This document shows, piece by piece, positions 1,366 through 57,318 of a stretch of DNA of 64,000 nucleotides (position 1 is the stretch's first letter; each line of letters opens with the position of its first letter). A program made the position numbers and the translations under genes. The notes beneath the pieces are model-generated. The model had not been told where the DNA came from and ran no database searches. It saw nothing but the letters and a program-made list of their open reading frames with translations. The stretch is taken from assembly GCA_042408215.1 (NCBI GenBank), contig JAYFMW010000008.1, positions 271,756 to 335,755 on the forward strand. Reading direction: 5' to 3'. The stretch is from Microcoleus sp. Lineage in GTDB: Bacteria > Cyanobacteriota > Cyanobacteriia > Cyanobacteriales > Microcoleaceae.

Positions 1366-2805
1366 AAGAGTTTTTTACCGCAGAGAGCGCAGAGAGCGCA
1401 GAGAGTTCTGAAAGGAAGATGAATCATACCTCTTTCTGCTCTTCCTCGGTGTCCTCTGCGCTCTCTGTGGTTAATTCAAAAAAATCTCATTCACCAACAA
1501 GAGTTTTTTACCGCAGAGAGCGCAGAGAGCGCAGAGAGTGCTGAAAGGAACATGAATCATACCTCTTTCTGCTCTTCCTCAGTGTCCTCTGCGCTCTCTG
1601 TGGTTAATTCAAAAAAATCTCATTCACCAACAAGAGTTTTTTACCGCAGAGAGCGCAGAGAGCGCAGAGAGTTCTGAAAGGAAGATGAATCATACCTCTT
1701 TCTTCTCTTCCTCAGTGTCCTCTGCGCTCTCTGTGGTTAATTAAAAAAAATCTCGTTCACCAACGCTTGATCAAGTATCATAATGAAAAGAGTTTTTTAC
1801 CGCAGAGAGCGCAGAGAGCGCAGAGAGTTCTGGAAGGAAGATGAATCATACCTCTTTCTGCTCTTCCTCAGTGTCCTCTGCGCTCTCTGTGGTTAATTCA
1901 AAAAAATCTCATTCACCAACAAGAGTTTTTTACCGCAGAGAGCGCAGAGAGCGCAGAGAGTTCTGAAAGGAAGATGAATCATACCTCTTTCTTCTCTTCC
2001 TCAGTGTCCTCTGCGCTCTCTGTGGTTAATTAAAAAAAATCTCGTTCACCAACGCTTGATCAAGTATCATAATGAAAAGAGTTTTTTACCGCAGAGAGCG
2101 CAGAGAGCGCAGAGAGTTCTGGAAGGAAGATGAATCATACCTCTTTCTGCTCTTCCTCGGTGTCCTCTGCGCTCTCTGTGGTTAATTAAAAAAAATCTCA
2201 TTTACCAACAAGAGTTTTTTACCGCAGAGAGCGCAGAGAGCGCAGAGAGTGCTGAAAGGAACATGAATCATACCTCTTTCTTCTCTTCCTCAGTGTCCTC
2301 TGCGCTCTCTGTGGTTAATTAAAAAAAATCTCATTTACCAACACTTGATCAAGTATCATAATGAAAAGAGTTTTTTACCGCAGAGAGCGCAGAGAGCGCA
2401 GAGAGTGCTGAAAGGAACATGAATCATACCTCTTTCTGCTCTTCCTCGGTGTCCTCTGCGCTCTCTGTGGTTCATTAAAAAAAATCTCATTTACCAACAA
2501 GAGTTTTTTACCGCAGAGAGCGCAGAGAGCGCAGAGAGTTCTGGAAGGAAGATGAATCATACCTCTTTCTGCTCTTCCTCGGTGTCCTCTGCGCTCTCTG
2601 TGGTTAATTAAAAAAAATCTCATTTACCAACGCTCGATCAAGTATCATAATGAAAAGAGTTTTTTACCGCAGAGAGCGCAGAGAGCGCAGAGAGTTCTGA
2701 AAGGAAGATGAATCATACCTCTTTCTGCTCTTCCTCGGTGTCCTCTGCGCTCTCTGTGGTTAATTAAAAAAAATCTCATTCACAAATAATTTATCAAGTA
2801 TCATA
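1366..2805. repeat. Tandem array of 10 palindromic units (133 bp and 156 bp variants forming a 289-bp higher-order repeat)
   Basis: Units start (aagagttttttaccgcagagagcgcagag) at 1366, 1499, 1632, 1788, 1921, 2077, 2210, 2366, 2499 and 2655. Each unit has inverted arms accgcagagagcgcagag / ctctgcgctctctgtggt. Confidence 0.95.
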
Positions 2806-5247
2806 ATGAAACGGATATTTCTAGTTGGTCCTCCCAGAAGCGGTACAACACTACTTCAAAGTTTGTTAGCCTCTCATCCTGAAGTTATTTCTTTTCCTGA
2901 ATCTAAGTTTTTTCACTATTTACTGTATAATAAGTTTGTCAAAAAGTTTCCCGATAGACTGTCAGCTTTTTTTAAGGATGAGATTAATCGTCCTGAGTTT
3001 TTGCAGAATTTTGATAATAGCAAATCTACGGAACTTAAAGTGAGTTGGTTTGTCGGAGTTTTAGATAGTTTGGCTGCGGAAGAGCAGAAAAGCATTTGGT
3101 TGGAAAAAACGCCGGAACACATATATTTTATTAAAGATATAGAGCGTTTTTTACCCGATGCTAAATTTATACATATTTTGCGAAATGGTATGGATACCAT
3201 CGCTTCTCTCTATGAAGCTACTAGGATTTCTCCAGAATTGTGGGGGGATGGTTGGGATTTAGACCATTGTATTAAACGTTGGCAAGAAGGGGTGTTAATT
3301 AGCCATAGCTATGCTCATAAATCTCATCATAAATTGGTTAAATATGAGGATCTTTTAGAGAATAAAACTAAATTTTTGGCTGATATTTGTGATTTTCTTG
3401 GCATTGAGTATGATAGTAAAATGCTGGTTAATTATAAAGCTAAAGCTGCTAATTTGAGTTTGAATTTACCTTGGCATAAGGGAATTGAAAGAGATATTCA
3501 AAGCACTAAGGTTCACAAATATCATACTTTTTTTAATAGCCATGAAATTCAATATATTTTAGATAAAATCAAGTGGATAAATTCTGAAATTGTCTATAAG
3601 GTTAAGGTGGAGGTGACTGAACCTATTTCGGATATTTCTATTCCGCAAATATTCGATCGCCTTTGCTGTACAATCCAACTAGAAGGTGTTAAACTGGGTA
3701 TTGTTGAATTGCCAGTCTGTGACGGGATGGTGGCTGGTGTGGTTTTGGCGGATGCGATCGCAGCTAAGTTTGCTTGGCCAATTCTCCAACGCTTTTTTCA
3801 ACACAGAGCCTGGGAAAGTATACATAAATTATCGGAAAGTTCTCTGAGTAGATTGCATCGGAAACTTCAGTGGAGGGAATTTTTACAGGAAATATGGGAT
3901 TGTCCAATTTCATCTTCTGATTATTTCTCTAATCCCAATTTAACTATCGATGAAGCATCAATTATTAGTCTGACTGAAGACTTGATTGTGGTGGAGCTTA
4001 GCGCCGAATTGCCTAATATTAAAGTTGACCTTTCGGAAATAGATGTGCTGGTAAAAGTAGGCGGAGTTGCGGTGGGGATTGTAACTGTTGCGGTTGATAA
4101 TAATTTTGTTTCTGCTCAACAATTGCGATCGACAATTACTCAATATACTAACTTTGAATTGTGTGTTGCTGCTGTGCGATCGGCTTTGTTGGGAAAACCG
4201 CTAAATGGTAAGATGTCGCTGCGATCGCATTTAGCCACATCTGCTCAACAAATGGCGAATGCGCCCGAAAGGTTGAATGCAGCGGGTTCTGAGGGCATTT
4301 ACTCCCAAAATGCGGTGATATTTGGCAGGCACGAGGGGGCGATCGGAACGAGTGCTAGTCGTCGGGCCGCACTACCAGCGGCGGCGCTGCGGGAATTAGC
4401 AGAAGCTGCGGAAATTGCGGGGGAACCGATCATGCAAATTCCCCTAGATAACGAGTTACCGAAACAAGTAATTTACGCACCGGAAATCATGGCGCGAAAG
4501 TCGCCCTATAAAGCAGTTTCTCAATTAACTGAAACTCAAGTTTTTCACAATCAGACAGTTAATCAAAAGCTCCCAATTTTTGCCTACCGTCGCATTTCTC
4601 CTAAGGGTTTAAATGCAATTAATCCGCAGGTTTTTGAACAACAGTTGCAGCGTCTTAAAAACCAAGGTTACTATAGTGTTAGTTGGTCAAGTTTGTCCAG
4701 TGCGAAACTAACTAAAACTGCTTTACCTGGTAAACCTATATTGCTGACTTTTGACGGCGGCTATCAGGACTTTTGTGAATATGCTTTACCTTTGCTAAAA
4801 CGCTTTGACTTTACAGCAACTGTTTTTCTAGTAGCAGAGTCGATAGGAAAGACAAATAGTTGGGAAAAAGCCGACTCTGAAGAATTACAGTTAATGGGAT
4901 GGCCGGAAATTCTGCAACTGCGGGATGCAGGGATTGAGTTTGGTTCCATGTCTGCGACTTATCAACCTCTGACTGGTTTGTCGCCGACAGAAATTGTGCG
5001 GGAAGGGGCGAAATCTCGTGCTATTTTGCAACGGGGATTGGGGAAACCTGTCGAATCTTTTGCTTATCCCTACGGAAATGTTGATGAAATTGTCAAGCAT
5101 TTAATTGGGGCGATTGGCTATACTTTTGGTGTATGTTACGGGTCAAAATATAGTAGTTTTGATGATTCTTTATTGTCGCTACCCCGCATTCAAGTAGGGT
5201 GCGTCAGAAAGCGAGATTTTCGCCTCAACCAAAAATCTCTCAACTGA
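2806..5247 (+). CDS. Sulfotransferase fused to a C-terminal polysaccharide deacetylase (NodB)-like domain
   Basis: N-terminal GPPRSGTTLL PAPS loop, WLEKTP and ILRNGMD motifs. C-terminal ILLTFDGGY...ATVFL...FAYPYG...LPRI deacetylase fold. Confidence 0.8.
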   Translation: MKRIFLVGPPRSGTTLLQSLLASHPEVISFPESKFFHYLLYNKFVKKFPDRLSAFFKDEINRPEFLQNFDNSKSTELKVSWFVGVLDSLAAEEQKSIWLEKTPEHIYFIKDIERFLPDAKFIHILRNGMDTIASLYEATRISPELWGDGWDLDHCIKRWQEGVLISHSYAHKSHHKLVKYEDLLENKTKFLADICDFLGIEYDSKMLVNYKAKAANLSLNLPWHKGIERDIQSTKVHKYHTFFNSHEIQYILDKIKWINSEIVYKVKVEVTEPISDISIPQIFDRLCCTIQLEGVKLGIVELPVCDGMVAGVVLADAIAAKFAWPILQRFFQHRAWESIHKLSESSLSRLHRKLQWREFLQEIWDCPISSSDYFSNPNLTIDEASIISLTEDLIVVELSAELPNIKVDLSEIDVLVKVGGVAVGIVTVAVDNNFVSAQQLRSTITQYTNFELCVAAVRSALLGKPLNGKMSLRSHLATSAQQMANAPERLNAAGSEGIYSQNAVIFGRHEGAIGTSASRRAALPAAALRELAEAAEIAGEPIMQIPLDNELPKQVIYAPEIMARKSPYKAVSQLTETQVFHNQTVNQKLPIFAYRRISPKGLNAINPQVFEQQLQRLKNQGYYSVSWSSLSSAKLTKTALPGKPILLTFDGGYQDFCEYALPLLKRFDFTATVFLVAESIGKTNSWEKADSEELQLMGWPEILQLRDAGIEFGSMSATYQPLTGLSPTEIVREGAKSRAILQRGLGKPVESFAYPYGNVDEIVKHLIGAIGYTFGVCYGSKYSSFDDSLLSLPRIQVGCVRKRDFRLNQKSLN

Positions 5248-11899: not shown

Positions 11900-13347
11900 T
11901 TGACACTCCCCGGTCTAAAGACGCGGGGATTCTTAAGGAGAAACTTTGGGGGATGAATCCGTCCAAAGTTTGATTCTTAAAGGGTTAGTCAGCAACCCCC
12001 TACCCACTCGCTGAATTATTGAGTCTGTGGCAAATGATTGATTTGCGGATGATATTAGCTGCACCATTAACGTCTGCATTAATTAACAACCCAGTGCTAG
12101 AACGGTACAAACCTCGCTTGATTCGCTTACCCGATGGCTGCCAATTGTCGGGTTTTTCACCGACTTTCACTGGCAACAAATCTTGGTCTAAAAAACTAGC
12201 TTTTGATGTGTAAGATTCATCTTGTTCGACAAATCTCCATCCCCTTAAATCGCATTCTTGTTGAAGCCTATCTTTAACTTTAGCTGTCGGTATTTGGACA
12301 AAGTTCTGGTTAGTCTTACCTCCCATATTGACTTCTTGTTTCTGTCCTTTATTCCAACCAAAGACTAGGACGTTAATTTGGTGATCTTCACAATAATCTA
12401 TGATGGTTCTAACTGCTTTATTAACAGCATCTCTCATTCTTCTGGTGCGAGTTTCTGACAACTGTTGCAGTCTATGAGACGAAAAACCTTTAGGCAACTT
12501 ACATTGATCGTGTACTGATTGCACCCGCGCCTTTTCCTTATTAAACCATTGGTTCCAAGACTTTAATTTGTGACCATCAATAATAAATGGTTTGCCATTA
12601 CTAGAAACACAAGTTAGCCAGTTATTGATGCCGCGATCGATACCTAAAATTCCCGTTACTTCCCAGCTACAGATAGGGGCTTGTTTGGTTAGACTTTCGT
12701 GGACAAATTCGACCCAAACTTTGCCATTTCTAGGGATTAGTCGAAGTTCTTTAATCTGGCAATTCTTCAGTCTTTCCGGTAAAGTCACCCAGAGAGCATC
12801 TGTCCCAAAGTGTTCTTTGCCTTTAGTTCCCAGAGGTAGTCTCACCCGATTACCGACTATTTTCAAGGCTTGCCCAGGGTAGGTCACCTGGTACATTGCT
12901 CCCTTGGTTCTGTACTTGGGCAATCTCGGTTTTTGATTAAGTTCTCCTTTCTTGGCTAACCTTTCTAATGCTCGGAAAGAGCTAAAGGATTCAGCAACAG
13001 ATTTGAGGGATTGTTGAGCCACTTGCGAGTAAAGTAAACCGTAATTATCGTTGGGTTTGGCAATTTTGTACAGGTCTGGGTATTTAATTGCGCCTTGGTC
13101 TTTGAAGTACCGTTGCCGACTTTCGTAAGTGCCGACATTAAACAGATTGTTTGACCATCTTAAGATTTGCTCGACAATGGTTTTGTCAAGTCCCTTTAAA
13201 TGCCAAACATCTTTTTGCACTGCATACATTAATTTCAACCTCCTTTGATTAATTGTACTATATTTAGAAATATCTAACTGGGAGATTAAAGTCTCCCTCG
13301 CCCTTTCATCCCTGGACTAAAGTCGCAGGGTTTTCAGGGTATTTCTT
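11900..13347 (-). mobile_element. IS200/IS605-family element carrying tnpB only (IS1341-type)
   Basis: Right end on minus strand is hairpin ccccgcgtctttagaccgggg followed by agtgTCAA. Left-end hairpin ccctgcgactttagtccaggg is preceded by TTAT (13348-13351). No tnpA. Confidence 0.85.
12000..13229 (-). CDS. tnpB: RNA-guided endonuclease TnpB family protein (no zinc finger, rearranged RuvC-II)
   Basis: SQVAQQSL, GIDRGINN (RuvC-I), VEQDESYTSKASFLD, INADVNGAANI (RuvC-III). GGAGG lies 9 nt before ATG 13229. Confidence 0.88.
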   Translation of the reverse strand: MYAVQKDVWHLKGLDKTIVEQILRWSNNLFNVGTYESRQRYFKDQGAIKYPDLYKIAKPNDNYGLLYSQVAQQSLKSVAESFSSFRALERLAKKGELNQKPRLPKYRTKGAMYQVTYPGQALKIVGNRVRLPLGTKGKEHFGTDALWVTLPERLKNCQIKELRLIPRNGKVWVEFVHESLTKQAPICSWEVTGILGIDRGINNWLTCVSSNGKPFIIDGHKLKSWNQWFNKEKARVQSVHDQCKLPKGFSSHRLQQLSETRTRRMRDAVNKAVRTIIDYCEDHQINVLVFGWNKGQKQEVNMGGKTNQNFVQIPTAKVKDRLQQECDLRGWRFVEQDESYTSKASFLDQDLLPVKVGEKPDNWQPSGKRIKRGLYRSSTGLLINADVNGAANIIRKSIICHRLNNSASG

Positions 13348-14828: not shown

Positions 14829-15665
14829 ATGTTCAAGAAAGAACTTTTTGGGCTAATCATTATCGCCACAGGTTTAGTAACCCTGAATATGACACTCCTC
14901 TGGAAAATGGGGGATATTGCTCATTTTTATATGAGTGTAGTTTTTTGGTTCGCTGTGGGTTCCCTACTTTGGGACAAGCAGGATATTCTCAAACAGAGTG
15001 AGGTAAAAAGTGACCTATTATCGAGAGTCGCTGGGACAATATTAATAGCTTTTATTTTATTTAAAAGTGCTATGGTTTCCAGTAAATTCGATATTTTTTT
15101 AAGAATAGCACCTTTTTTGTCTGGTTTAGGTGTGGCCCTAATTGCGGTAGGTTTTCAGGATTTAAAAAAATATTGGCGTGAATTGGTCATACTATTTTTT
15201 CATGGCATCCCCAGTGTACTTACGTCACCTTTAGTAGATATTATTACCTCGTTTACAGCTCAGTCGGCTTATTTTTCTTTGTGGTATTTGGGTTTTAATG
15301 CAACACGTGAGGGTAATTATGTTGCTTTACCGACAGGAAGGGTGTTGGTATATGGGGGATGTTCGGGTATCGAGGCCATGAATTACTTATTAGGTTTATC
15401 TGTAGTTTGTTTGTTGATGTTTCCTACTAAACAAAATAAAGCTTTGGTAATAGGTGTCGCTGTCGCTTTGGGTTTTATGATTAATACTTTGAGAGTGGCG
15501 GCAATGGCTTTGTTAGTTGCATCTAATCGCCTAGATTTGTTTAAATATTGGCATGAGGGTGAAGGTTCTTTGGTGGTGGGGATGATTGCGGTGGTTTTGT
15601 TTGGGATATTTTATCAATTTATCTTGAAACAAGATAGCAAAATTAGTCAAAGTTCGCGAAATTAA
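14829..15665 (+). CDS. Cyanoexosortase (probably type A), copy A
   Basis: Multi-TM protein with VYGGCSG (Cys), INTLRV (Arg) and YWHEG (His) exosortase triad, directly downstream of a PEP-CTERM gene. Confidence 0.88.
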   Translation: MFKKELFGLIIIATGLVTLNMTLLWKMGDIAHFYMSVVFWFAVGSLLWDKQDILKQSEVKSDLLSRVAGTILIAFILFKSAMVSSKFDIFLRIAPFLSGLGVALIAVGFQDLKKYWRELVILFFHGIPSVLTSPLVDIITSFTAQSAYFSLWYLGFNATREGNYVALPTGRVLVYGGCSGIEAMNYLLGLSVVCLLMFPTKQNKALVIGVAVALGFMINTLRVAAMALLVASNRLDLFKYWHEGEGSLVVGMIAVVLFGIFYQFILKQDSKISQSSRN

Positions 15666-18047: not shown

Positions 18048-18884
18048 ATGTTCAAGAAAGAACTTTTTGGGCTAATCATTATCGCCACAGGTTTAGTAAC
18101 CCTGAATATGACACTCCTCTGGAAAATGGGGGATATTGCTCATTTTTATATGAGTGTAGTTTTTTGGTTCGCTGTGGGTTCCCTACTTTGGGACAAGCAG
18201 GATATTCTCAAACAGAGTGAGGTAAAAAGTGACCTATTATCGAGAGTCGCTGGGACAATATTAATAGCTTTTATTTTATTTAAAAGTGCTATGGTTTCCA
18301 GTAAATTCGATATTTTTTTAAGAATTGCACCTTTTTTGTCTGGTTTAGGTTTGGCCCTAATTGCGGTAGGTTTTCAGGATTTAAAAAAATATTGGCGTGA
18401 ATTGGTCATACTATTTTTTCATGGCATCCCCAGTGTACTTACGTTACCTTTAGTAGATATTATTACCTCGATTACAGCTCAAGTTGCTTATTTTAGTTTG
18501 TGGTATTTGGGTTTTAATGCAACACGTGAGGGTAATTATGTTGCTTTACCGACAGGAAGGGTGTTGGTATATGGGGGATGTTCGGGTATGGAGGCCATGA
18601 ATTACTTATTAGGTTTATCTGTAGTTTGTTTGTTGATGTTTCCTACTAAACAAAATAAAGCTTTGGTAATAGGTGTCGCTGTCGCTTTGGGTTTTATGAT
18701 TAATGCTTTTAGAGTGGCGGCAATGGCTTTGTTAGTTGCATCTAATCGCCTAGATTTGTTTAAATATTGGCATGAGGGTGAAGGTTCTTTGGTGGTGGGG
18801 ATGATTGCGGTGGTTTTGTTTGGGATATTTTATCAATTTATTTTGAAACAAGATAGCAAAATTAGTAAAAGTTCGGGAAAATAA
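18048..18884 (+). CDS. Cyanoexosortase (probably type A), copy B
   Basis: Near-identical to 14829..15665 (about 10 aa differences). Cys/Arg/His triad intact. Confidence 0.88.
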   Translation: MFKKELFGLIIIATGLVTLNMTLLWKMGDIAHFYMSVVFWFAVGSLLWDKQDILKQSEVKSDLLSRVAGTILIAFILFKSAMVSSKFDIFLRIAPFLSGLGLALIAVGFQDLKKYWRELVILFFHGIPSVLTLPLVDIITSITAQVAYFSLWYLGFNATREGNYVALPTGRVLVYGGCSGMEAMNYLLGLSVVCLLMFPTKQNKALVIGVAVALGFMINAFRVAAMALLVASNRLDLFKYWHEGEGSLVVGMIAVVLFGIFYQFILKQDSKISKSSGK

Positions 18885-24226: not shown

Positions 24227-24424
24227 AGGCTCTCATGCAAAATCTCAAATCTCAAATAAAATGTCCCTCCCTCGCTCTTCGGCCAATAAAAATCCGATTT
24301 CTTGCACACTTTCCCAAAAAGGTTAAGATAGCCTCAAACTGACATTTATTCGCCAAAGGGTGAGAGAGGGTGCGATCGGGAAAGACAAGTTTGAGATTAA
24401 ATCAAGTCCACCCAGACAGGCAGT

Positions 24425-29767: not shown

Positions 29768-30080
29768 CACAAATAACAAATAACAAATAACAAATAACAA
29801 ATAACCAATAACAAATAACCAATAACAAATAACCAATAACAAATAACAAATAACTAATGACTAATGACTACTGACTACTGACTACTGACTACTGACTACT
29901 GACTACTGACTACTGACTACTGACTACTGACTACTGACTACTGACTACTGACTAATGACTAATGACTACTGACTACTGACTAATGACTACTGACTACTGA
30001 CTACTGACTACTGACTACTGACTACTGACTACTGACTAATGACTACTGACTAATGACTACTGACTAATGACTACTGACTA
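29768..30080. repeat. Heptameric STRR arrays (acaaata; actactg/actaatg)
   Basis: More than 40 tandem 7-mers. Confidence 0.95.
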
Positions 30081-43874: not shown

Positions 43875-44298
43875 CTACTTAATAATTACCGCTGTCAAGA
43901 CTTCATGACTGTCAACCGTTACCAAAACATCATCTTCAATTCTAATGCCAATACCGCGCCAGTTTTCGGGAACCTCCGGCGGCCGTGGGGCGAGTTTAAT
44001 CTGAGGAGAAATATAAATTCCCGGTTCCACCGTCAGCACTTGTCCAGGCTGCAAAACTTGCGGATTTTCACCGTACTGATAGCACAAATTTGTGTTCTTC
44101 GTGGTGCGGTGCGATCGCTGCTACTGCTGAAGCTTCGTTAAAACCTGTTAAGTAGAAAAAATCGCTATCTTGTCGGTATGTGTATGCTACATCGTTGTGC
44201 ATAACGGCCATTGGCGCGCTGCGAAATATCGCCGTACCAGTGCCGATTTTTGCCATTAATTGTTCGCGTCTTTGTCGGTATTCTGTGGGATTGGTCAT
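43875..44298 (-). pseudogene. pepP: Xaa-Pro aminopeptidase relic with a large internal deletion
   Basis: N-terminal EYRQRREQLM...RQDSDFFYLTGF is joined out of frame to C-terminal LTVEPGIY...[13 protein letters not shown]. Confidence 0.85.
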
Positions 44299-44710
44299 CC
44301 GATTTGAGATTTGAGATTTGAGATTTGAGATCGATCAGTCCTGGACGCGAACTGGCACATAAGGTAGGGTGCGTCAGTTGGGAAAAACCTAATTTTTCGT
44401 ACTCAACTCAAGACGCTCCGCACCATACAGCGTGGTTAAAGTGTGAGATCAATTCCGGTTGCACCGTCAGGTGATTGTTGACGGTTGACGGTTGACAGTT
44501 AACTCGAATTTACTATGCCGATGAAGAGAGGATTTGATCTGACAATTGCGTCCAGGAATGTTGATTTTAATATTAACATTCGGCGGTTGAAACCGCTTCT
44601 ACACAGACAAAACCCGCTATGAGGCGGGTTGAATTTCTTTAGTCCGCTTGGAGTGGACTTCGTTTGTGTAGAAGCGAATTCTATTCGCCCTGAATATTCG
44701 CCCTAACTTT

Positions 44711-46597
44711 TTAAAGTTGAGGAACGTATTGTTCTTTTTCTGGCACAAAAGTGTACTCAGCTACAATTTGCCGGAATTCTTCGCCGTCGATGGTTTCTTT
44801 TTCAATCAACAAATCCACTAGGCGATCGATCGCGGTGCGATTGTCGCGAATAATCCGGCGCGCATCTTCGTAGCAGTGATCGACAATTGCTCGAACTTGT
44901 CCGTCAATCCGAGAGGCTATTTCTTCGGAATATTCCGATCGCGCTGTGTAGTCGCGGCCGAGGAAAATTTCGCTTTGCTGAGCTTCCAAGGCGATGGGGC
45001 CCAAGGTAGACATCCCGTAGCGAGTCACCATTTGGCGCGCCATACCGCTGACTTGCTGCAAGTCGTTGCCGGCACCGGTGGTAACTTCGGCATCGCCGAA
45101 AACTACTTCCTCCGCTGCGCGGCCGCCCAAAGCACCGCTAATCCGTGCCAAAATTTGCGATCGAGAAATCAAACCTTGGTCTTCGCTGGGCATAAACCAA
45201 GTTAAACCACGGGCTTGTCCGCGAGGGACTAAAGTTACTTTTTGTACGGGATCGTGGGCTTGAATGACGGTACCAACGATCGCGTGACCGATTTCGTGGT
45301 AAGCAATTAAGCGCTTGCTCTTGCTATCCACCAAAGGAGTGCCTTCCATACCTGCGACTACTCGATCGACTGCATCGTCAATTTCGAGCATCGTAATCGC
45401 TTCTTTCCGGCGACGGGCGGTTAAAATGGCAGCTTCGTTCAGCAAGTTGGCCAAATCAGCACCGGTAAAGCCAGGAGTCCGGCGGGCGATCGCGTCCAAA
45501 GAAATATCGGGGCCTAGTTTTTTGTTGCGCGCGTGAACATCCAAAATCTCCAACCTGCCCTTGATATCCGGCGTATCTACGCTAACTTGGCGGTCAAAAC
45601 GTCCCGGCCGCAGCAAAGCAGAGTCGAGCACGTCAGGGCGGTTTGTGGCAGCAATGATGATAATTCCAGTATTGCCCTCAAAACCGTCCATTTCCGTCAG
45701 CAACTGGTTGAGGGTTTGTTCGCGCTCGTCGTTGCCGCCACCGATGCCACCGCCCCGCTGACGACCCACGGCGTCAATTTCATCAATAAATATGATGCAA
45801 GGAGCATTTTCCTTCGCTTTCTTAAACAAGTCGCGGACGCGGGAAGCGCCGACACCTACGAACATTTCGACAAATTCTGAACCGGAGATGCTGAAGAAAG
45901 GCACGCCTGCTTCGCCTGCGATCGCTTTGGCCAGCAGAGTTTTGCCGGTTCCCGGAGGGCCAACTAGGAGCACGCCTTTGGGAATTTTGGCTCCGATCGC
46001 GGTGAAGCGTTCTGGCTTTTTGAGGAATGTCACGACTTCTTGAAGTTCTTCTTTGGCTTCTTCAACGCCGGCTACATCGTCGAACAGTACGCCGGTCTTA
46101 GCTTCCATTTGAAAGCGAGCTTTGGACTTGCCAAAATTCATGGCTTGGCCTGGGCCGCCTGGTACGTTGCCGCCGCGGCGGAATAGGAAAAACAGCCCTC
46201 CCACCAACAGCAGGGGAAAAACGAGATTGCCTAAGAGTCCCCACACAGCGCCGTCGTTACGCAGCGGGTGAGTGTCGAAGCTGATTTGGGAGGCTCTGAG
46301 TCGAGAAACCAGTTCCGGGGCATTGGAGGGTAAATCCACTCGCCACCGCTGTTCGTGATTGTCCAGTTCGGGATCGACTGCTAGGATAATAGCCGTCCGA
46401 CCTCCGTCGTAAAGGTCAACGCTGGTGACTCGACCGGCGTTTAAGTAATCTAAGAATCGACCGTAGCTCAGGCGGGTGCTGGCGGTGTTCTTGCTATTTT
46501 CGGTGGCGGATGTTGCAAAAGCCCCTTGCCACAGGAAAAAGCCGATGACTAAGGCGGGTAAAGTCCAAAGTAGTATAGTTCGCCAAGAAATTTTCAT
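44711..46597 (-). CDS. ftsH: ATP-dependent zinc metalloprotease FtsH (FtsH2-like)
   Basis: [29 protein letters not shown]. Confidence 0.96.
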
Positions 46598-46901
46598 AAA
46601 TACGGGGGCCTCAAGATGTGGACAAATCGGGTAAGATCGCGGTGTCGGGGATGTGAGATAAAAGTTAACACTCAGAATCTTAACTAAATGTAACTTAACA
46701 ATGCACTCTCAGGCAACAGGGCATGGCTGTGGCGATCGAGCATAGGACTCACCGAAAGCATCCAGGGTACAAAGCCCTCGGTACAGGTCGCTCTTGTCGC
46801 CTCTCAAATCTCAAATCTCAAATCTCAAATCTAAAATCCATTAAGGGCGATCGTCCCGAATATAATATTTGGTGCTGATTCCAATACCGATCTAGGTAAA
46901 G

Positions 46902-46950
46902 TTAGAAAAATCGCGGCAAAACCCACTGTATTTAAGCGTGGCAGTGTCAA
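46902..46950 (+). mobile_element. Minimal fused left-end/right-end scar of an IS200/IS605 element
   Basis: TTAG|aaaaatcgcggcaaaacccac...gtggcagtgTCAA: target tetramer, single degenerate hairpin, and the same agtgTCAA terminus as the other elements. Confidence 0.5.
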
Positions 46951-46997
46951 GGGATAAGGCATGATAATGGTGAGGCTCAGTGAGGTAACACATTTCA

Positions 46998-48080
46998 ATG
47001 ACAACTAGACAGCTTGTTCCTAATTCGGCTATGCTGACCCAGCAGACTAAAATCTCTTCTCACAGATCGATTATTAGTGCTGATTTGGGTCGCACGGCAA
47101 CTAAAGCTTGCGTGAGTCGCAACCCGAGTGGTGTTGTTTTCATCCCCGCCAACGTACTTTCTATGCCGGTGGAAAAGGTGCGGGGCGGCAGCTTTGAGTC
47201 CAAAGCAACAGACCCTCTGTTGGATATGTGGCTGGAGTACCAGGGCAAGGGTTACGCTATAGGCCAACTGGCGGCGGATTTTGGCGCTAATCTCGGCGGT
47301 GCTGACCAGTCTAAAGTAGTGGATGCTTTGGTTAAGGTTTTTTCCTGTGCTGGATATTTCCAAATGAAAGGCGAAATAGCAGTTGTGCTGGGTTTGCCGT
47401 TTTATTCGCAGGATCAGTTTGAGAAGGAAAAGGAAGAAATTGTCAGCCAACTGCGCTCTCCGCACGTTATGGTTTACCGGGGCGAGCGCGTGGATCTTAA
47501 CATCAGCCACGTTTGGGTGATGCCGGAAGGGTTCGGCAGCCTGATTTGGTGCGAGGCTCAAGACAACAAGGAGTTTTCGCCGGAGTTGCCAGAACTATCT
47601 GTGGCTGTTGTCGATATCGGACATCAAACTACTGATTTGTTGATGGTCGATCGTTTCCGATTCGCCCGGGCCGCTTCTAAGAGTGATTCCTTTGCTATGA
47701 ATAAGTTCTACGAACAAGTTGCTGCAAAGATTCCGGGAGCCGATGCTCAATCTCTGTCTTTACTTGAAGCCGTTAACAAGTCTGAAGGCAACCGTTTCTA
47801 CCGTCCTAGAGGAGCTACTAAGCCAACTAATTTAGATCCGATTATTAAGGATTTGCGGGAGAGTTTCGCTAACGAATTGTCCGAACGTTTGGTGCAGTGG
47901 CTACCGGAACGGGTGACGGATGTGGTTCTGACTGGTGGCGGTGGCGAATTTTTCTGGGAGGTTCTCCAACCCTTGCTCAGAGAAGCCAATCTCAAGGCTC
48001 ACTTGGCTCAGCCTTCTCGGAAAGCAAATGCTTTAGGACAGTATATTTATGCTGAGGCTCAGCTAGCCACCATTAAGTAA
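46998..48080 (+). CDS. parM: ParM/StbA-family actin-like ATPase (chromosomal)
   Basis: Actin motifs ADLGRTATK (phosphate 1), VMPEG, VDIGHQTTD (phosphate 2), LTGGGG (adenosine), ANALG. Confidence 0.85.
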   Translation: MTTRQLVPNSAMLTQQTKISSHRSIISADLGRTATKACVSRNPSGVVFIPANVLSMPVEKVRGGSFESKATDPLLDMWLEYQGKGYAIGQLAADFGANLGGADQSKVVDALVKVFSCAGYFQMKGEIAVVLGLPFYSQDQFEKEKEEIVSQLRSPHVMVYRGERVDLNISHVWVMPEGFGSLIWCEAQDNKEFSPELPELSVAVVDIGHQTTDLLMVDRFRFARAASKSDSFAMNKFYEQVAAKIPGADAQSLSLLEAVNKSEGNRFYRPRGATKPTNLDPIIKDLRESFANELSERLVQWLPERVTDVVLTGGGGEFFWEVLQPLLREANLKAHLAQPSRKANALGQYIYAEAQLATIK

Positions 48081-48100
48081 CGCATTAAGGCTTGAACCCT

Positions 48101-48631
48101 ATGGCACTGTGGGCAAAAAATAAGGCGAATTTCTCGGTGGCGTTTACGGAAGATGCTGCGGATCAAACTTTGCTGGCCGCTATTGAAAAAGATCTGGCTG
48201 TGACTAGGTATCAGACTTTCAGCAATCTCTGCAAGCAAGCTCTGTGGCAGTTTTTGTCTGTGTCTGAGTCTGAGTCTGAGTCGGCGGGTTCTACACCTAG
48301 CTTTCAGCGGTTGGAACAGCGTATTGCTGAACTTGCGGTCAAATTTGCTGAGTTCGAGCACAATGTTTCCGCTGAGGAATTAAGCCGTTTGGAGGGACTG
48401 GAACATCACCTGAATCAACTCAGCGCGCAGTTGTCGCAGTTGCAGGGGAGTGTTGATGCTAAGTTTGCTCAAGTTTCTTTTGCCAAAGTTTCAAAAGTAG
48501 TAGAGCCTGACGCGGTTGAGTCTGAGTCTGTAGCAGATCAGAATGTAGTTTCTGATGCTGAGGTTGCTCCTCGTCGGCAATCCGATCCTTTGTTGGATCG
48601 TTTAAGTTCTTTGTTACCGCAAGATTTCTAA
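48101..48631 (+). CDS. ParR-like adaptor (RHH-like N-terminus, coiled coil, C-terminal amphipathic helix)
   Basis: Starts 20 bp after parM. FSVAF..DQTLLAAIEKDL..FSNLCKQALWQFL, heptad repeats, DPLLDRLSSLL terminus. Confidence 0.65.
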   Translation: MALWAKNKANFSVAFTEDAADQTLLAAIEKDLAVTRYQTFSNLCKQALWQFLSVSESESESAGSTPSFQRLEQRIAELAVKFAEFEHNVSAEELSRLEGLEHHLNQLSAQLSQLQGSVDAKFAQVSFAKVSKVVEPDAVESESVADQNVVSDAEVAPRRQSDPLLDRLSSLLPQDF

Positions 48632-48804
48632 AATGAGGTAGCCAAGGTTTTTTAGCCTTGAGATGTGCTGTTAGTGGCTGGCTGTTGTCAGCCAGTTCTG
48701 AATAAATAAACAAGGCGATCGCTCTTTTGAAAAAAATGGCGATCGTTTTGTTATTGCCGATTTGAGATTTGAGATTTGAGATTTGAGAATTACTCACCTG
48801 AGTG

Positions 48805-49713
48805 TCAATCCATTAATCCTAATTTTTGCAATCGTGAACGAATCGCCCCAGATTGTCTCTGAAATTTCTTTGCTAATTCGCCAATTTGTTGACCGCTAGC
48901 ATATTCATTCTTCAACTTCTCATCTTCTTCTCGACTCCACTTGACATAAGCTCTGGGATACTTCTGACGAATTTTCTCAACATCGTAGGTTTTAGGTCGA
49001 TCGGCCTTATTTTGAGCGACAGAACTCTCAGGTTGAGAATTGCGATCGCCTACGGCTGACTGCACGCGGTTAGGAATAGCAGCAATTTCTTGAGATACCA
49101 GCCCCAAAGCATTTTCTACTTGTTGCTGAAGTTCTGTTAGCTGCCGTTGCTGCAAATTTCCCCACTGTGGCAGTTCGTTGATAAACTGCTGCAAATCGAG
49201 CATTATTGTTGTCAAAGTTTCGATTTGTGCTAACTCCGGCCGCTGTTTGAATTGGCGGCCGATCAGATCGATCTCGCTTTGAATCATTTTAATAGTTTTT
49301 TCTAAAATTATTAGCCGCTGACGCAGATTCTCAACTGCTGAAATTAGAGAATGTACGTTTTCTCCTGGCTGAACATTGAGATTTTCGCTCTGAGTTTGAG
49401 AGATCGCCTCGTCTAAAGACTTGATGACAGTTTGTAACTGCTCGATCGCCCGATCGGTGGTAGCGGCTTGTTGATTTACCCGATCGAACGTTGAGGCCGT
49501 ACTAGCCCTAACTTGTCGCTGCAACTTTTGCCGGTTAACAAAATTCAACAGTAGCGAAATTACTACCGGCACCTCCGCATAGACGCTTTGCTGCCAAACC
49601 AAACTAGCAGCCAATCCAACCGCAGAGGCAGCCAGAAAAACCAATTCAGCAGTTTCTAACAAATTGCTCGCTGTGGAATTTTGGATTTTGGTTGGTGAAT
49701 TGGATGAGGACAT
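48805..49713 (-). CDS. Membrane-anchored coiled-coil protein with a C-terminal Myb/HTH-like domain
   Basis: Two N-terminal hydrophobic helices, a long coiled coil, and [16 protein letters not shown]...[19 protein letters not shown]. Confidence 0.6.
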
Positions 49714-49748
49714 ATGTTAAGTATGTGGGTAAAGTTAAAGTGCGATCG

Positions 49749-49880
49749 AATTGGGAATTGGGAATTGGGAATTGGGAATTGGGAATTGGGAATTGGGAAT
49801 TGGGAATTGTTAATTGGGAATTGGAAATTGGGAATTGGGAATTGTTAATTGGGAATTGTTAATTCGTAATTCGTAATTGA
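49749..49880. repeat. Heptameric STRR array (aattggg)
   Basis: Tandem 7-mers. Confidence 0.9.
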
Positions 49881-49946: not shown

Positions 49947-50516
49947 TTAAACCTGCAAAATTTGTCGAGCCAAAGTGAAGTAAATCAAAACGCCGAGGAC
50001 ATCAACTGCTGTGGTAATAAAAGGAGCGGACATTAAAGCCCAGTCTAAACCCAAAGAACGAAATAAAAACGGCAGAGCAGAACCGGCAATAGAAGCTAAA
50101 ATTGCGATCGCCAACAAACTGATCCCCACTGCGATCGCCACTGCTAAATTCCCTTGTAGGGTGTAAGCCCAGCCAGTCGCTACCGTCCCCAATATAGAGC
50201 CTAACAGCGCTCTCGCCATCCCAGGAGCGAATAATTATCTGAAGAGGCCCCATTGCTGTAATTTCGTAGGTGTTCAAACCCTTTTGCGAGCAACGGTGAT
50301 TAAATCGGTCTAAAAATAATTGTCACCGCCGGATTGGACACCACCCAAGGTATAAATGACTTCGGCGATGTCAGGGAACTGCACCGGCTGCAAAATCGCT
50401 TTTGCTCCTTGAAAGTCTCGTTCCAGCAGAGCTTTTAACTGCGATCGTACTAATTCCCGCAATTCTTTTCGCGGGTAGGTGGGTAGCGAAGATAATTGAT
50501 AATTGTTTTCTGTCAC
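49947..50516 (-). pseudogene. mgtE: Magnesium transporter MgtE relic with several internal deletions
   Basis: N-terminal GAKAILQPVQ.PDIAEVI is fused to YTLGGVQSGGDNYF*. C-terminal LPFLFRSLGLD.ALMSAPFITTAVDVLG. CBS domains and most TM segments are missing. Confidence 0.8.
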
Positions 50517-55827: not shown

Positions 55828-55979
55828 CAAAAGATTTGAGATTTGAGATTGTAGATTTATACCACAGATTGAAGCGAATTTCAAGATTTGCGGGTTAAAA
55901 ATAAAAAATTAAAGTGCGCTAAACCGTACCTGGAAATTGACGGTATTCTACACAGCCTCTGAAATTTGGTAGATACAAT

Positions 55980-57318
55980 TTGACATTCTCACCGGGCTGA
56001 AGCCACGGTGATTCTAAACATCACTGTTTAGGCTTCCTCTTTCGGCGATCCGACTTATTTAAAAGAGTTTCCTCATTCAAACTCTTGTCGATATCTCCAG
56101 AGGCGTTTGAGGTTTCCGTGTGCCCCACGGTACGCAATCCAAGTTCTAATATGTTGCGAGCGGCGTTCCAATCTCGGTCTAAAACGAATCCACAATGTGG
56201 ACAAATATGTGTTCTTTGACTTAATGACTTTTTCGCCACTTTCCCACAACTAGAACAATTTTGACTTGTATAGTGTGGCGGTACTGCAACAGTTGCCACC
56301 CCAAACACTTTGCCAAAATATTCAATCCAATTTCTAAAAGCTGTCCAAGCCGCATCTGATATCGACTTGGATAGCTTTTTGTTTTTGACCATGTTACGCA
56401 CCTGCAAGTCTTCATAGGCTACCAAGTCGTTAGACTGGACTACGCACCTTGCTAATTTCACAGCAAAGTCTTTACGCCGCCTGCTTACCTTGAGGTGTTT
56501 TCTACTTAAACAATTTCGAGCCTTGGCTCTATTTTTAGAACCTTTCTGCGTTCTAGAAAGTCTACAATTAAGCTTTTTTAACGATCTTTCGGACTTTCTT
56601 AGATGGCGCGGGTTCTCTACGGTGTTACCGTCAGAGTCTGTGTAGAAATGAGTTAGCCCTACATCCAAACCGATTGTTTTTCCGGTCGGCTCCCGCTTTT
56701 CGTTTCGTTCAGCGTCAATACAAAATTGCACGTAGTAGCCATCGGCTCGACGAACTACGCGCACTCGTTTAACTTGACTTAGCTGATAGAAATGTAGGTC
56801 ACGAGTTCCCCATAATTTAAAAATTCCGGCTTTAAATCCATCAGTGAAAGTTATATTTCGTCGGTCTTCAGAAAGCTTCCACCCACAGGTCTTGTATTCA
56901 ACAGAACCGTGCGTTTCATGCTTTTTGAAGTGCGGAAAACCTTTCTTTCCTGGTTTTGCCTTCTTGCAGTTGTCAAAGAATCGTGCAATCGCTGACCAAG
57001 CTCTTTCAGCAGAAGCTTGCCTTGCCATTGAGTTGAGTTTACTGGCCCAAGGAAATTCTTTGGCAAGAACTACGCAATAAGCGCTTAAGTCGTAGCGACC
57101 TACCCCTGGGGTATCCATCCAGTACCTGATGCAGCTATTACGAATGAAGCGAGCAGTACGAATGGCTTCGTCTAGCCGTTCGTACTGCTCGCTTTTCCCT
57201 TCTAGCTTGGCTTCAAATACTAACATTTACGTCGAGTGAGTGAATATAAAGACTATAACAGAGTTCTGGAGAAATTAAAGCCGTCCTATAAGGACGGGGC
57301 TTTAGACCCAGCTTTTTG
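55980..57318 (-). mobile_element. IS200/IS605-family element carrying tnpB only
   Basis: Right end tcaccgtggcttcagcccggtga followed by gaatgTCAA. Left-end hairpin gccccgtccttataggacggc follows TTAC (57319-57322). Confidence 0.88.
56021..57226 (-). CDS. tnpB: RNA-guided endonuclease TnpB
   Basis: GLDVGL, AYEDL, CSSC/CPHC zinc finger, DRDWNAA: intact D-E-D triad. Confidence 0.92.
   Translation of the reverse strand: MLVFEAKLEGKSEQYERLDEAIRTARFIRNSCIRYWMDTPGVGRYDLSAYCVVLAKEFPWASKLNSMARQASAERAWSAIARFFDNCKKAKPGKKGFPHFKKHETHGSVEYKTCGWKLSEDRRNITFTDGFKAGIFKLWGTRDLHFYQLSQVKRVRVVRRADGYYVQFCIDAERNEKREPTGKTIGLDVGLTHFYTDSDGNTVENPRHLRKSERSLKKLNCRLSRTQKGSKNRAKARNCLSRKHLKVSRRRKDFAVKLARCVVQSNDLVAYEDLQVRNMVKNKKLSKSISDAAWTAFRNWIEYFGKVFGVATVAVPPHYTSQNCSSCGKVAKKSLSQRTHICPHCGFVLDRDWNAARNILELGLRTVGHTETSNASGDIDKSLNEETLLNKSDRRKRKPKQ

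What the first reader, a model, noticed from the sequence alone, without database searches (positions are those of the whole stretch)
46998..48631. Chromosomal ParM-like actin + ParR-like adaptor operon with no plasmid context: candidate repurposed cytoskeleton
Seen in the sequence: a complete actin-fold ATPase (DLGRTATK, PEG, DIGHQTTD, TGGGG) followed 20 bp later by a 176-aa partner. The partner has a short hydrophobic/basic N-terminus (MALWAKNK), an RHH-like block, a coiled coil and an amphipathic C-terminal helix (DPLLDRLSSLL). The pair lies divergent from ftsH among core genes, with no rep, relaxase, integrase or obvious parC iteron array. Established: type II ParMRC systems normally segregate plasmids, and ParR binds ParM through a C-terminal helix. 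Inference: this is a domesticated filament system, possibly membrane-tethered through the adaptor N-terminus and acting in cell shape or division rather than DNA segregation. I recall a comparable chromosomal pair (CorM/CorR) reported in Anabaena but cannot verify orthology here.
Basis: partly seen in the sequence, partly recalled or inferred. Interest (0 to 1): 0.85.

Follow-up and report, generated by a model that had tools for sequence, protein, structure and literature searches.

The report
Known cyanobacterial cell-shape actin pair (FcmBC/CorMR)

Summary
Window 46998-48080 (+) encodes a 360-aa actin-fold ATPase. Twenty bases later, 48101-48631 (+) encodes a 176-aa partner. The pair lies divergent from ftsH on a 335-kb contig of core genes.

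Both proteins pass NCBIfam equivalog models: FcmB 650.6 bits (cut-off 300) and FcmC 163 bits (cut-off 90). The ATPase matches the solved CorM filament of Anabaena (9rmi; E 2.8e-153; Foldseek 66% identity).

Two 2025 papers (PMC12645912; bioRxiv 10.1101/2025.06.27.661541) show experimentally that this chromosomal ParMR derivative forms cortical filaments. The adaptor tethers them to the membrane, and the system controls cell shape rather than DNA segregation.

The family is in 25 of 25 sampled genomes of the window's family and 19 of 19 of its genus. Its tree follows taxonomy. The best plasmid homologues are only 53-57% identical. The flanking heptamer arrays are dispersed, non-conserved repeats, not parC.

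Three lineage differences were seen. The CorM N-terminal tail is shorter. The CorR N-terminus is only weakly amphipathic. MinC lacks the Nostocales CorM-binding helix.

The parts
46998..48080 (+). fcmB / corM: 360-aa actin-like ATPase that forms the filament
   Evidence: NF052678 morpho_FcmB 650.6 bits against a cut-off of 300. Pfam ALP_N and MreB-like_C. PDB 9rmi CorM at E 2.8e-153. AF2 model against 9rmi_A: TM 0.75, 66% identity. Single copy in the genome.
46998..47063 (+). N-terminal variable, low-confidence tail of CorM (aa 1-22)
   Evidence: pLDDT is below 50 for residues 1-22. The region is unaligned and variable in A2. About 26 residues precede the conserved core here, against about 45 in Nostocales-type orthologues. 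The paper assigns the 40-aa tail of Anabaena CorM a role in filament dynamics.
48101..48631 (+). fcmC / corR: 176-aa adaptor
   Evidence: NF052682 morpho_FcmC 163 bits against a cut-off of 90. A same-strand ORF downstream of fcmB, ending in ...[DE]F, is present in 49 of 49 loci examined.
48101..48133 (+). CorR N-terminus MALWAKNKANF, the presumed membrane-binding segment
   Evidence: It aligns with the Nostocales MFQWSKKVVKS segment (A1), whose deletion abolishes vesicle binding in Anabaena CorR. The hydrophobic moment here is 0.349, unremarkable (rank 171 of 516 background 11-mers), against 0.535 for the Nostocales form.
48122..48271 (+). RHH-like block of CorR (aa 8-57: extended segment, helix 19-34, helix 40-57)
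   Evidence: AF2 secondary structure. Invariant F15, D21, F40, L43, C44, K45, A47 and L48. Not confirmed by fold or sequence search.
48296..48487 (+). Long helix / coiled coil of CorR (aa 66-129)
   Evidence: AF2 helix 66-129 with pLDDT about 90. The profile matches only coiled-coil chains in the PDB.
48584..48628 (+). C-terminal CorM-binding helix of CorR (aa 162-176, DPLLDRLSSLLPQDF)
   Evidence: D162 and F176 are invariant; P163, R167 and D175 are at least 90% conserved in 28 orthologues. AF2 helix 163-171. The equivalent residues 150-162 of Anabaena CorR are required to recruit CorM. The complex prediction gave weak support.
46598..46997 (.). Divergent ftsH-fcmB intergenic region with the presumed operon promoter
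   Evidence: Two blocks are conserved among 14 Microcoleus-type loci, about 46610-46710 and about 46843-46997. The second holds a conserved TATAAT at 46861-46866. They are separated by a variable middle that holds the heptamer array (A3). Promoter function is inferred; the consensus scan found no two-hexamer site here.

Best explanation
The pair is the Microcoleaceae orthologue of the chromosomal FcmB/FcmC (= CorM/CorR) cytoskeleton of filamentous cyanobacteria. The mechanism below is taken from the characterised orthologues and is inferred here. FcmB/CorM is an ATP-dependent actin-like protein that polymerises into double-stranded filaments lying under the cytoplasmic membrane, transverse to the trichome axis. 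FcmC/CorR is a dimeric RHH-type ParR descendant that no longer binds DNA. It holds the membrane with its N-terminus and captures CorM with its C-terminal helix (aa 162-176 here), so the filaments are tethered to the cortex. The system is needed for normal rod or barrel cell shape, probably by patterning lateral peptidoglycan synthesis. It does not segregate DNA. It was inherited vertically in this lineage. Shown here: orthology, conserved catalytic and interface motifs, chromosomal context, absence of a conserved centromere, and presence in RNA libraries. Inferred: polymerisation, membrane tethering and the shape role in this organism.
For: Family and structure:
- Both NCBIfam equivalogs are passed.
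- The PDB CorM chain 9rmi matches at E 2.8e-153 over residues 9-358.
- The AF2 model's top Foldseek hit is 9rmi_A (E 2.9e-38, TM 0.75, 66% identity). Alp7A, Ta0583 and ParM chains follow at 14-21% identity.

Distribution and descent:
- Among 401 cyanobacterial genomes, 80 score over the cut-off (at least 502 bits) and the next best hits score at most 68.8 bits. Own family 25 of 25, own genus 19 of 19, family f5 45 of 45.
- In the tree the window's protein sits in its genus (SH-aLRT 97) and family (99). The 17 taxon labels need 16 changes, the least possible.
- Named relatives are Microcoleus species at 93-99% identity. They include two records on multi-Mb replicons: CP181291.1, titled a complete chromosome, and CP031705.1, a 6.76-Mb record.

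Plasmids and centromere:
- 69 plasmid records match, all below 60% identity. The best four (53.5-57.3%) are all in Nostocales and the next are at most about 25%.
- The heptamer unit also occurs at 24240, 44301-44331 and 55832-55858.
- An upstream array of at least 3 exact copies is seen in only 2 of 17 related loci, with other units. The array region is missing in 5 of 14 aligned upstream regions.

Adaptor and interface:
- The adaptor termini are conserved.
- Complex prediction of CorM 25-360 with CorR 125-176 gave weak support. Score 0.53 against best control 0.01; runs agree in at least 61% of contacts; partner pLDDT at least 47. The mark was reached by 116 of 157 solved complexes and 2 of 215 mismatches, but at 0.60 or under by only 18 of the 157 and by both mismatches. 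A like complex (4a62, ParM with a ParR peptide) is solved, so the pass may be from memory.

Expression:
- Contigs of RNA libraries from 4 studies cover the operon. Two of them bridge the fcmB-fcmC junction: X1 record 5 (46808-48388) and X6 record 30 (47784-48620).

Published experiments read:
- Deletion mutants are rounded and DNA distribution is unaffected.
- CorR does not bind promoter or parC DNA.
- CorR binds vesicles through aa 1-10 and CorM through aa 150-162.
Against: - There is no experiment on this organism or on any Oscillatoriales-type member. All function is carried over from Nostoc punctiforme and Anabaena.
- The N-terminal 11-mer of this CorR has an ordinary hydrophobic moment (0.349, rank 171 of 516). 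The preprint itself says the helix is poorly conserved in Oscillatoriales.
- The MinC control described for Anabaena cannot work the same way here. The genome's MinC (279 aa) lacks the N-terminal insertion with the CorM-binding helix. The insertion is present in 5 of 5 f5 genomes and in 0 of 6 others, own included.
- Sequence-profile and fold searches did not link the adaptor to ParR or RHH structures.
- The complex support is weak.
- RNA libraries can contain DNA, and contigs do not prove a single transcript.
Confidence: 0.92

Rival explanations
1. The proteins are the same orthologues, but anchoring and regulation are rewired in Microcoleaceae. CorR would not hold the membrane through an N-terminal amphipathic helix, and a factor other than MinC would set where filaments form. 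The filaments might be anchored through another partner or serve a partly different role, for example in trichome mechanics or motility.
For: The N-terminus is weakly amphipathic (0.349 against 0.535 in Nostocales). MinC lacks the CorM-binding helix in 6 of 6 non-f5 genomes examined. The divergent ftsH-fcmB arrangement is kept in 9 of 9 fetched loci of family f1 and in f22 and f28. It is seen in none of 30 f5 loci, which have 1.5-kb flanks. The CorM tail is shorter.
Against: W4, K6 and K8 and the following strand align with the Nostocales membrane-binding segment, and net charge is +2. The preprint reports predicted amphipathic helices in Oscillatoriales CorR homologues. A genome-wide scan for another CorR-like C-terminal peptide found only CorR itself and one unrelated internal match. 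Conserved gene order may be simple inheritance.
Confidence: 0.1
2. The pair is a working type II ParMRC partition system that segregates the chromosome or a large replicon, with the upstream heptamer array as its centromere.
For: The architecture is the ancestral one: an actin-like ATPase followed by a small adaptor with a C-terminal helix. A tandem array (TCTCAAA x5.3) lies 160 nt upstream of the ATPase gene.
Against: The ParM equivalog NF010498 scores 51.5 bits against a cut-off of 417. The array unit is dispersed in the window (12 matches; 0.05 expected by chance). It is one of dozens of heptamer arrays and is not conserved in relatives. The context is a 335-kb contig carrying dxs, ispD, accD, psbV, aspS and ftsH. 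Orthologous CorR does not bind DNA, and mutants show normal DNA distribution.
Confidence: 0.03
3. The pair is a recently integrated plasmid or mobile-element remnant with no host function.
For: Two TnpB genes and some gene fragments lie in the window.
Against: The family is present in 19 of 19 genomes of the genus and 25 of 25 of the family, in a conserved position next to ftsH. The tree is congruent with taxonomy. Both frames are intact with invariant catalytic motifs. The operon is found in RNA libraries.
Confidence: 0.01

Closest known systems
CorM/CorR of Anabaena sp. PCC 7120 (bioRxiv 10.1101/2025.06.27.661541; PDB 9rmi)
   Same: Same two-gene chromosomal operon. CorM is 66% identical over 336 aligned columns. 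The adaptor has the same layout: N-terminal basic/aromatic segment, RHH-like block, long helix, disordered linker and a C-terminal helix ending in DF. No conserved parC.
   Different: The CorM N-terminal tail is about half as long. The CorR N-terminus has another sequence and a lower hydrophobic moment. The genome's MinC lacks the helix that regulates CorM in Anabaena. ftsH is the divergent neighbour here but not in Nostocales-type loci.
FcmB/FcmC of Nostoc punctiforme (Npun_R4472/R4471; PMC12645912)
   Same: This is the family on which the NCBIfam equivalogs NF052678 and NF052682 are named, and both are passed. Same gene order. That paper lists a Trichodesmium erythraeum FcmB as an orthologue, so non-heterocystous relatives are already included.
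   Different: Transcription by the hormogonium sigma factor SigC and the hormogonium phenotypes may not carry over to this organism. This was not examined here.
ParMRC type II partition system of plasmid R1
   Same: Actin-fold ATPase plus a downstream adaptor whose C-terminal helix binds the ATPase. It is the evolutionary source according to both papers. ParM chains are structural neighbours at 14-16% identity.
   Different: The window's pair is chromosomal and has no conserved centromere repeats. The ParM equivalog is failed (51.5 against 417 bits). The orthologous filament is antiparallel and non-staggered, and its adaptor binds membrane, not DNA.
MreB rod complex
   Same: It is also an actin-like, membrane-associated, antiparallel double filament, and its loss also rounds the cells.
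   Different: It is a different family. The genome has its own MreB on contig C28 (483 bits), and the window's protein was not among the PF06723 matches. No FcmB-MreB interaction was detected in two-hybrid assays.

Membership tests
FcmB / CorM | Scores over the curated equivalog cut-off (NF052678, 300 bits) | tested here: met
   650.6 bits; 651.1 bits in the genome search. The distribution is bimodal: at least 502 bits or at most 68.8 bits.
FcmB / CorM | Actin-fold ATPase with intact nucleotide-binding motifs, close to the solved CorM | tested here: met
   Pfam ALP_N and MreB-like_C. 9rmi at E 2.8e-153. Model TM 0.75 and 66% identity to 9rmi_A. DLGRT..K, MPEG, D.GHQT.D and GGG columns are invariant.
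FcmB / CorM | Falls in the chromosomal cyanobacterial clade, apart from plasmid-type ParM | tested here: met
   Tree of 64 sequences: the 52 FcmB-type rows separate from 12 ParM-like rows (SH-aLRT 93), and the window's row sits within its genus (97). This was a quick LG+G4 search with long outgroup branches.
FcmB / CorM | Encoded on the chromosome | tested here: met
   The contig is 335,755 bp with core genes. Orthologues lie on multi-Mb replicons: CP181291.1, titled a complete chromosome, and the 6.76-Mb record CP031705.1, and on single-contig genomes such as G156.
FcmB / CorM | Extended disordered N-terminal tail (40 aa in Anabaena) | tested here: inconclusive
   A tail exists (pLDDT below 50 for residues 1-22), but only about 26 residues precede the core against about 45 in Nostocales-type orthologues.
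FcmB / CorM | ATP-dependent polymerisation into cortical antiparallel filaments | not testable with these tools
   Shown only for Anabaena and Nostoc proteins.
FcmC / CorR | Scores over the curated equivalog cut-off (NF052682, 90 bits) and lies directly downstream of fcmB | tested here: met
   163 bits. The gap is 20 nt on the same strand. The same order is seen in 49 of 49 loci.
FcmC / CorR | C-terminal helix that binds CorM | tested here: met
   D162 and F176 are invariant; P163, R167 and D175 are at least 90% conserved. Helix 163-171. Binding itself has only weak computational support (0.53 against control 0.01).
FcmC / CorR | N-terminal amphipathic helix that binds membrane | tested here: inconclusive
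   The segment aligns with the Nostocales helix and keeps W4, K6 and K8. Its hydrophobic moment of 0.349 is not above background (rank 171 of 516), against 0.535 for Nostocales.
FcmC / CorR | RHH-type dimerisation domain without DNA binding | tested here: inconclusive
   The strand-helix-helix pattern is compatible. There was no RHH or ParR hit by Foldseek (best E 1.4) or by profile search (coiled coils only). DNA binding is not testable here.
Type II ParMRC plasmid partition system | Plasmid-borne, with parC centromere repeats upstream bound by ParR | tested here: not met
   The context is chromosomal. The only upstream repeat is a dispersed heptamer array that is not conserved in relatives.
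Type II ParMRC plasmid partition system | ParM equivalog score (NF010498, 417 bits) | tested here: not met
   51.5 bits.
Nostocales-type MinC-regulated CorMR | Long MinC (over 300 aa) with an N-terminal helix that competes with CorR for CorM | tested here: not met
   Own MinC is 279 aa without the insertion. The insertion is present in 5 of 5 f5 genomes (340-373 aa) and absent in 6 of 6 others.

The most novel reading that the evidence does not exclude
In Microcoleaceae the CorMR cytoskeleton runs on different control parts from those of the Nostocales model. MinC has no CorM-binding helix, the CorR N-terminus is only weakly amphipathic, and the operon is locked in a divergent arrangement with ftsH. 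Filament placement, and perhaps membrane anchoring, would then depend on a factor not yet identified. This lineage would be the place to find how a cortical actin is patterned without the Min link.
Probability: 0.25. Interest if true: 0.45.

Novelty: already known. Interest (0 to 1): 0.15.

Why it matters
The system itself is a striking case of a plasmid-segregation machine turned into a cell-shape cytoskeleton. It was published twice in 2025, has a solved filament structure, and is named automatically by NCBI's family models. This window adds only another orthologue in a lineage that both papers already include. Its residual value lies in three points: the MinC regulatory link described for Anabaena cannot exist in this form in Microcoleus-type genomes, the adaptor's membrane-binding segment is divergent, and ftsH synteny is lineage-specific. 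These points are small and testable extensions, not new biology.

Tried and rejected
- Foldseek of the CorR model against the PDB gave no match at E <= 0.001 (best E 1.4, homeodomains). The model's mean pLDDT is 67.7, so this says nothing on RHH membership.
- A profile of 28 CorR orthologues against PDB sequences matched only coiled-coil chains for positions about 63-125. The single sequence gave only a chance-level hit.
- Pfam finds nothing significant in CorR.
- The Rfam scan of 46300-49000 gave two sub-threshold chance matches: SNORD28 at 28.1 bits against a gathering score of 50, and GIR1 at 17.8 against 100.
- The consensus promoter/terminator scan found no more sites than shuffles give.
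- The repeat search of the 400-nt upstream region found only the heptamer array and short chance pairs.
- A genome-wide regex scan of 34,299 frames for a second CorR-like C-terminal peptide found CorR and one unrelated internal match on contig C3.
- The three antisense ORFs over the pair (188, 100 and 112 aa) have no Pfam match.
- The look-up of earlier findings returned nothing.
- I considered using the single complex job on CorM with this genome's MinC. I used it on CorM-CorR instead, so the MinC question remains open.
- Parts of the laid stretch without contig cover (for example 46652-46735 in three runs) are not interpreted.
Full report
**Observation**

The two ORFs exist as described. Window 46998-48080 (+) gives a 360-aa protein. 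It carries DLGRTATK, MPEGFG, DIGHQTTD and LTGGGGEF, and these residues are invariant across 28 aligned orthologues. Twenty bases after its stop, an ATG at 48101 opens a 176-aa frame. That frame begins MALWAKNK and ends DPLLDRLSSLLPQDF. A TTG three codons upstream is possible, but the ATG form matches orthologues that lack the TTG. ftsH (44711-46597, minus strand) is divergent, 400 nt away.

**Identity**

- NCBIfam holds curated equivalog models for exactly this pair. The ATPase scores 650.6 bits on 'filament morphology actin-like protein FcmB' (cut-off 300). The partner scores 163 bits on 'filament morphology membrane protein FcmC' (cut-off 90). The ParM equivalog is failed at 51.5 bits against 417.
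- The PDB holds one sequence relative, chain 9rmi 'CorM', at E 2.8e-153 over residues 9-358.
- An AlphaFold2 model built on 28 orthologues has mean pLDDT 70.4, with residues 1-22 below 50. Its best Foldseek match is 9rmi_A, the CorM filament of Anabaena sp. PCC 7120 (E 2.9e-38, TM 0.75, 66% identity). Alp7A, Ta0583, Alp12 and ParM chains follow at 14-21% identity.

**What is published**

I read two papers.

*PMC12645912 (mSphere 2025).* I read the abstract, the Results and the Discussion, and ran a term search of two supplement files.
- It names FcmB/FcmC in Nostoc punctiforme.
- Deletions give wide, round cells with normal nucleoids.
- FcmB forms membrane-associated filaments around the cell. 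These become cytoplasmic without FcmC.
- The two proteins interact with each other but not with MreBCD.

*bioRxiv 10.1101/2025.06.27.661541.* I read the abstract, sections 5 (part 1 of 2), 7, 8, 10 and 11, and ran a term search.
- It names the same system CorM/CorR in Anabaena.
- CorM forms antiparallel, dynamically unstable double filaments.
- CorR does not bind the promoter or parC DNA. It binds vesicles through residues 1-10 and recruits CorM through residues 150-162.
- MinC depolymerises CorM through a helix in a Nostocales-specific N-terminal extension.

A search of the library for CorMR, FcmBC, chrParM and FcmB found only these two relevant papers.

**Distribution and descent**

- In 401 sampled cyanobacterial genomes the FcmB model is over its cut-off in 80. 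These include 25 of 25 genomes of the window's family, 19 of 19 of its genus and 45 of 45 of family f5. Scores are at least 502 bits or at most 68.8 bits, with nothing between.
- A quick maximum-likelihood tree of 64 sequences was built from 49 FcmB loci, 3 second copies and 12 ParM-like sequences. It puts the window's protein inside its genus (97) and family (99). The 17 taxon labels need the minimum of 16 changes. The outgroup branches are long, so the deep root is not secure.
- Named relatives at 93-99% identity are Microcoleus (with some Tychonema and Lyngbya labels). Two of these records are multi-Mb replicons: CP181291.1, titled a complete chromosome, and the 6.76-Mb record CP031705.1.

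**Chromosome or plasmid**

- The window is the last 64 kb of a 335,755-bp contig in a 7.36-Mb, 30-contig genome. It carries dxs, ispD, accD, psbV-type cytochromes, aspS and ftsH.
- No replication, relaxase or integrase gene was found among 48 ORFs scanned. Two TnpB genes lie at 12000-13238 and 56021-57226.
- Against 72,556 plasmid records, 69 match, all below 60% identity. The best four (53.5-57.3%) are in Nostocales plasmids and the rest are at about 25% or less.
- The genome holds no second ParM-like gene at E <= 0.001.

**Centromere**

In fact (TCTCAAA)x5.3 lies at 46802-46838 and its inverted copy at 48759-48788. Four observations argue against a parC role.
- The same unit occurs at 24240, 44301-44331 and 55832-55858: 12 matches in the window against 0.05 expected by chance.
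- The window holds dozens of other heptamer arrays in intergenic DNA.
- Of 17 related loci, only 2 have an upstream array of three or more exact copies, and those use other units.
- In an alignment of 14 upstream regions the array sits in a variable middle that is missing in 5 loci. The two flanking blocks are conserved.

Contigs from other genomic places also end in these arrays (table 7). They are dispersed short tandem repeats, not a conserved centromere.

**The adaptor**

- In 49 of 49 loci a same-strand ORF follows fcmB and ends in ...[DE]F. One of these (L020) is truncated.
- The 28-sequence alignment has invariant F15, D21, F40, L43, C44, K45, A47, L48, D162 and F176. P163, R167 and D175 are nearly invariant.
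- The AF2 model (mean pLDDT 67.7) shows an extended N-terminus, helices 19-34 and 40-57, a long helix 66-129, a disordered linker and a helix 163-171. This is the layout described for CorR.
- The complex prediction of CorM 25-360 with CorR 125-176 gave weak support. The median score was 0.53 against a best control of 0.01, the runs agreed in at least 61% of contacts, and the partner pLDDT was at least 47. The mark was reached by 116 of 157 solved complexes and 2 of 215 mismatches. At 0.60 or under it was reached by only 18 of the 157 and by both mismatches. A ParM-ParR peptide complex is solved, so the pass may reflect memory.

**Where this copy differs from the models**

1. About 26 residues precede the conserved core of CorM, against about 45 in Nostocales-type orthologues.
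2. The first 11 residues of CorR have a hydrophobic moment of 0.349. That is rank 171 of 516 among the 11-mers of the two proteins. The Nostocales segment scores 0.535. Membrane binding by this segment is therefore inferred from alignment, not from amphipathicity.
3. The genome's MinC is 279 aa. It lacks the insertion with the helix motif that all 5 examined f5 genomes carry (340-373 aa). None of the 6 other genomes has it. This agrees with the preprint's statement that the extension is unique to Nostocales.
4. The divergent ftsH neighbour is kept in 9 of 9 fetched loci of the window's family and in two other families. It is in none of 30 f5 loci, whose flanks are only 1.5 kb. Neither paper's main text mentions ftsH (for the preprint).

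MreB is present elsewhere in the genome.

**Expression**

Contigs from metatranscriptomic libraries of four studies lie on the operon at 90-100% likeness. Two contigs bridge the junction of the two genes. These libraries can hold DNA, and contigs do not define transcripts, so this is only weak support for expression.

**Verdict**

The system is already described, structurally solved and captured by annotation models. This window adds an orthologue in a lineage both papers already cover. The only open edge is how the filaments are placed and anchored in Microcoleus-type cyanobacteria, which lack the Nostocales MinC helix.

Noticed in passing
L075, L076, L077 (G050:C2, G368:C71, G390:C1); L160, L161 (plasmids NZ_CP026684.1, NC_007410.1): Some Nostocales carry a second FcmB/CorM copy of 505-526 aa. 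An N-terminal hydrophobic segment and a helical region of about 140 aa are fused to the actin domain (53-61% identity to the window's protein). Four copies lie on plasmids, where they are annotated as 356-366-aa ParM/StbA, and no FcmC-like gene follows. The three genomic copies form one clade nested inside the Nostocales FcmB clade. Some have altered motifs. They may be a self-anchored derivative that moved back to plasmids. Neither paper's main text contains 'transmembrane'; the preprint has no 'paralog' and the mSphere paper uses the word only for mreB.
   Followed up: partly
window 46802-46838 and 48759-48788; also 24240, 44301-44331, 55832-55858 and many other arrays: The operon is bracketed by inverted copies of a TCTCAAA heptamer array. 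The window holds dozens of different 7-nt tandem arrays in intergenic DNA, for example ACTACTG x32.6 at 29853-30080 and GAATTGG x15.9 at 49748-49858. These are dispersed short tandem repeats that vary between relatives.
   Followed up: yes
L085, L096, L124, L144, just upstream of fcmB: In 4 of 14 aligned relatives an insertion of about 300 nt, unrelated to the window's sequence, separates the conserved upstream block from the fcmB start. Three of the insertions end in a GTCCTAGAAGGACGG hairpin-like motif. They may be a small mobile element or an RNA gene.
   Followed up: no
window 1366-2811: A large tandem array with periods of 133, 156 and 289 nt (4-10 copies, up to 97% matches). Each unit contains CGCAGAGAG x3. 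It lies between two sulfotransferase-domain genes.
   Followed up: no
window 14829-15665 and 18048-18884: Two 278-aa exosortase (EpsH) genes have nearly equal Pfam scores. Each is preceded by the same AACTAAT repeat 3,219 nt apart, which suggests a recent direct duplication of about 3.2 kb.
   Followed up: no
window 43875-44298 and 49947-50219: Gene fragments flank the locus: two short pieces of an aminopeptidase P (AMP_N and Peptidase_M24 ends) and a 90-aa C-terminal piece of MgtE. TnpB/OrfB_IS605 genes lie at 12000-13238 and 56021-57226.
   Followed up: no
L020 (G098:C1): In one Nostocales genome the fcmC orthologue appears broken. tblastn gives two overlapping pieces, and the longest ORF is 108 aa and lacks the N-terminal part.
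   Followed up: no
window 48805-49713 (-): A 302-aa ORF lies convergent with fcmC. It has no Pfam or NCBIfam family and is conserved at 74-77% identity in three genomes of the same genus. It lies directly beside fcmC in two of them and about 2.9 kb away in the third.
   Followed up: partly
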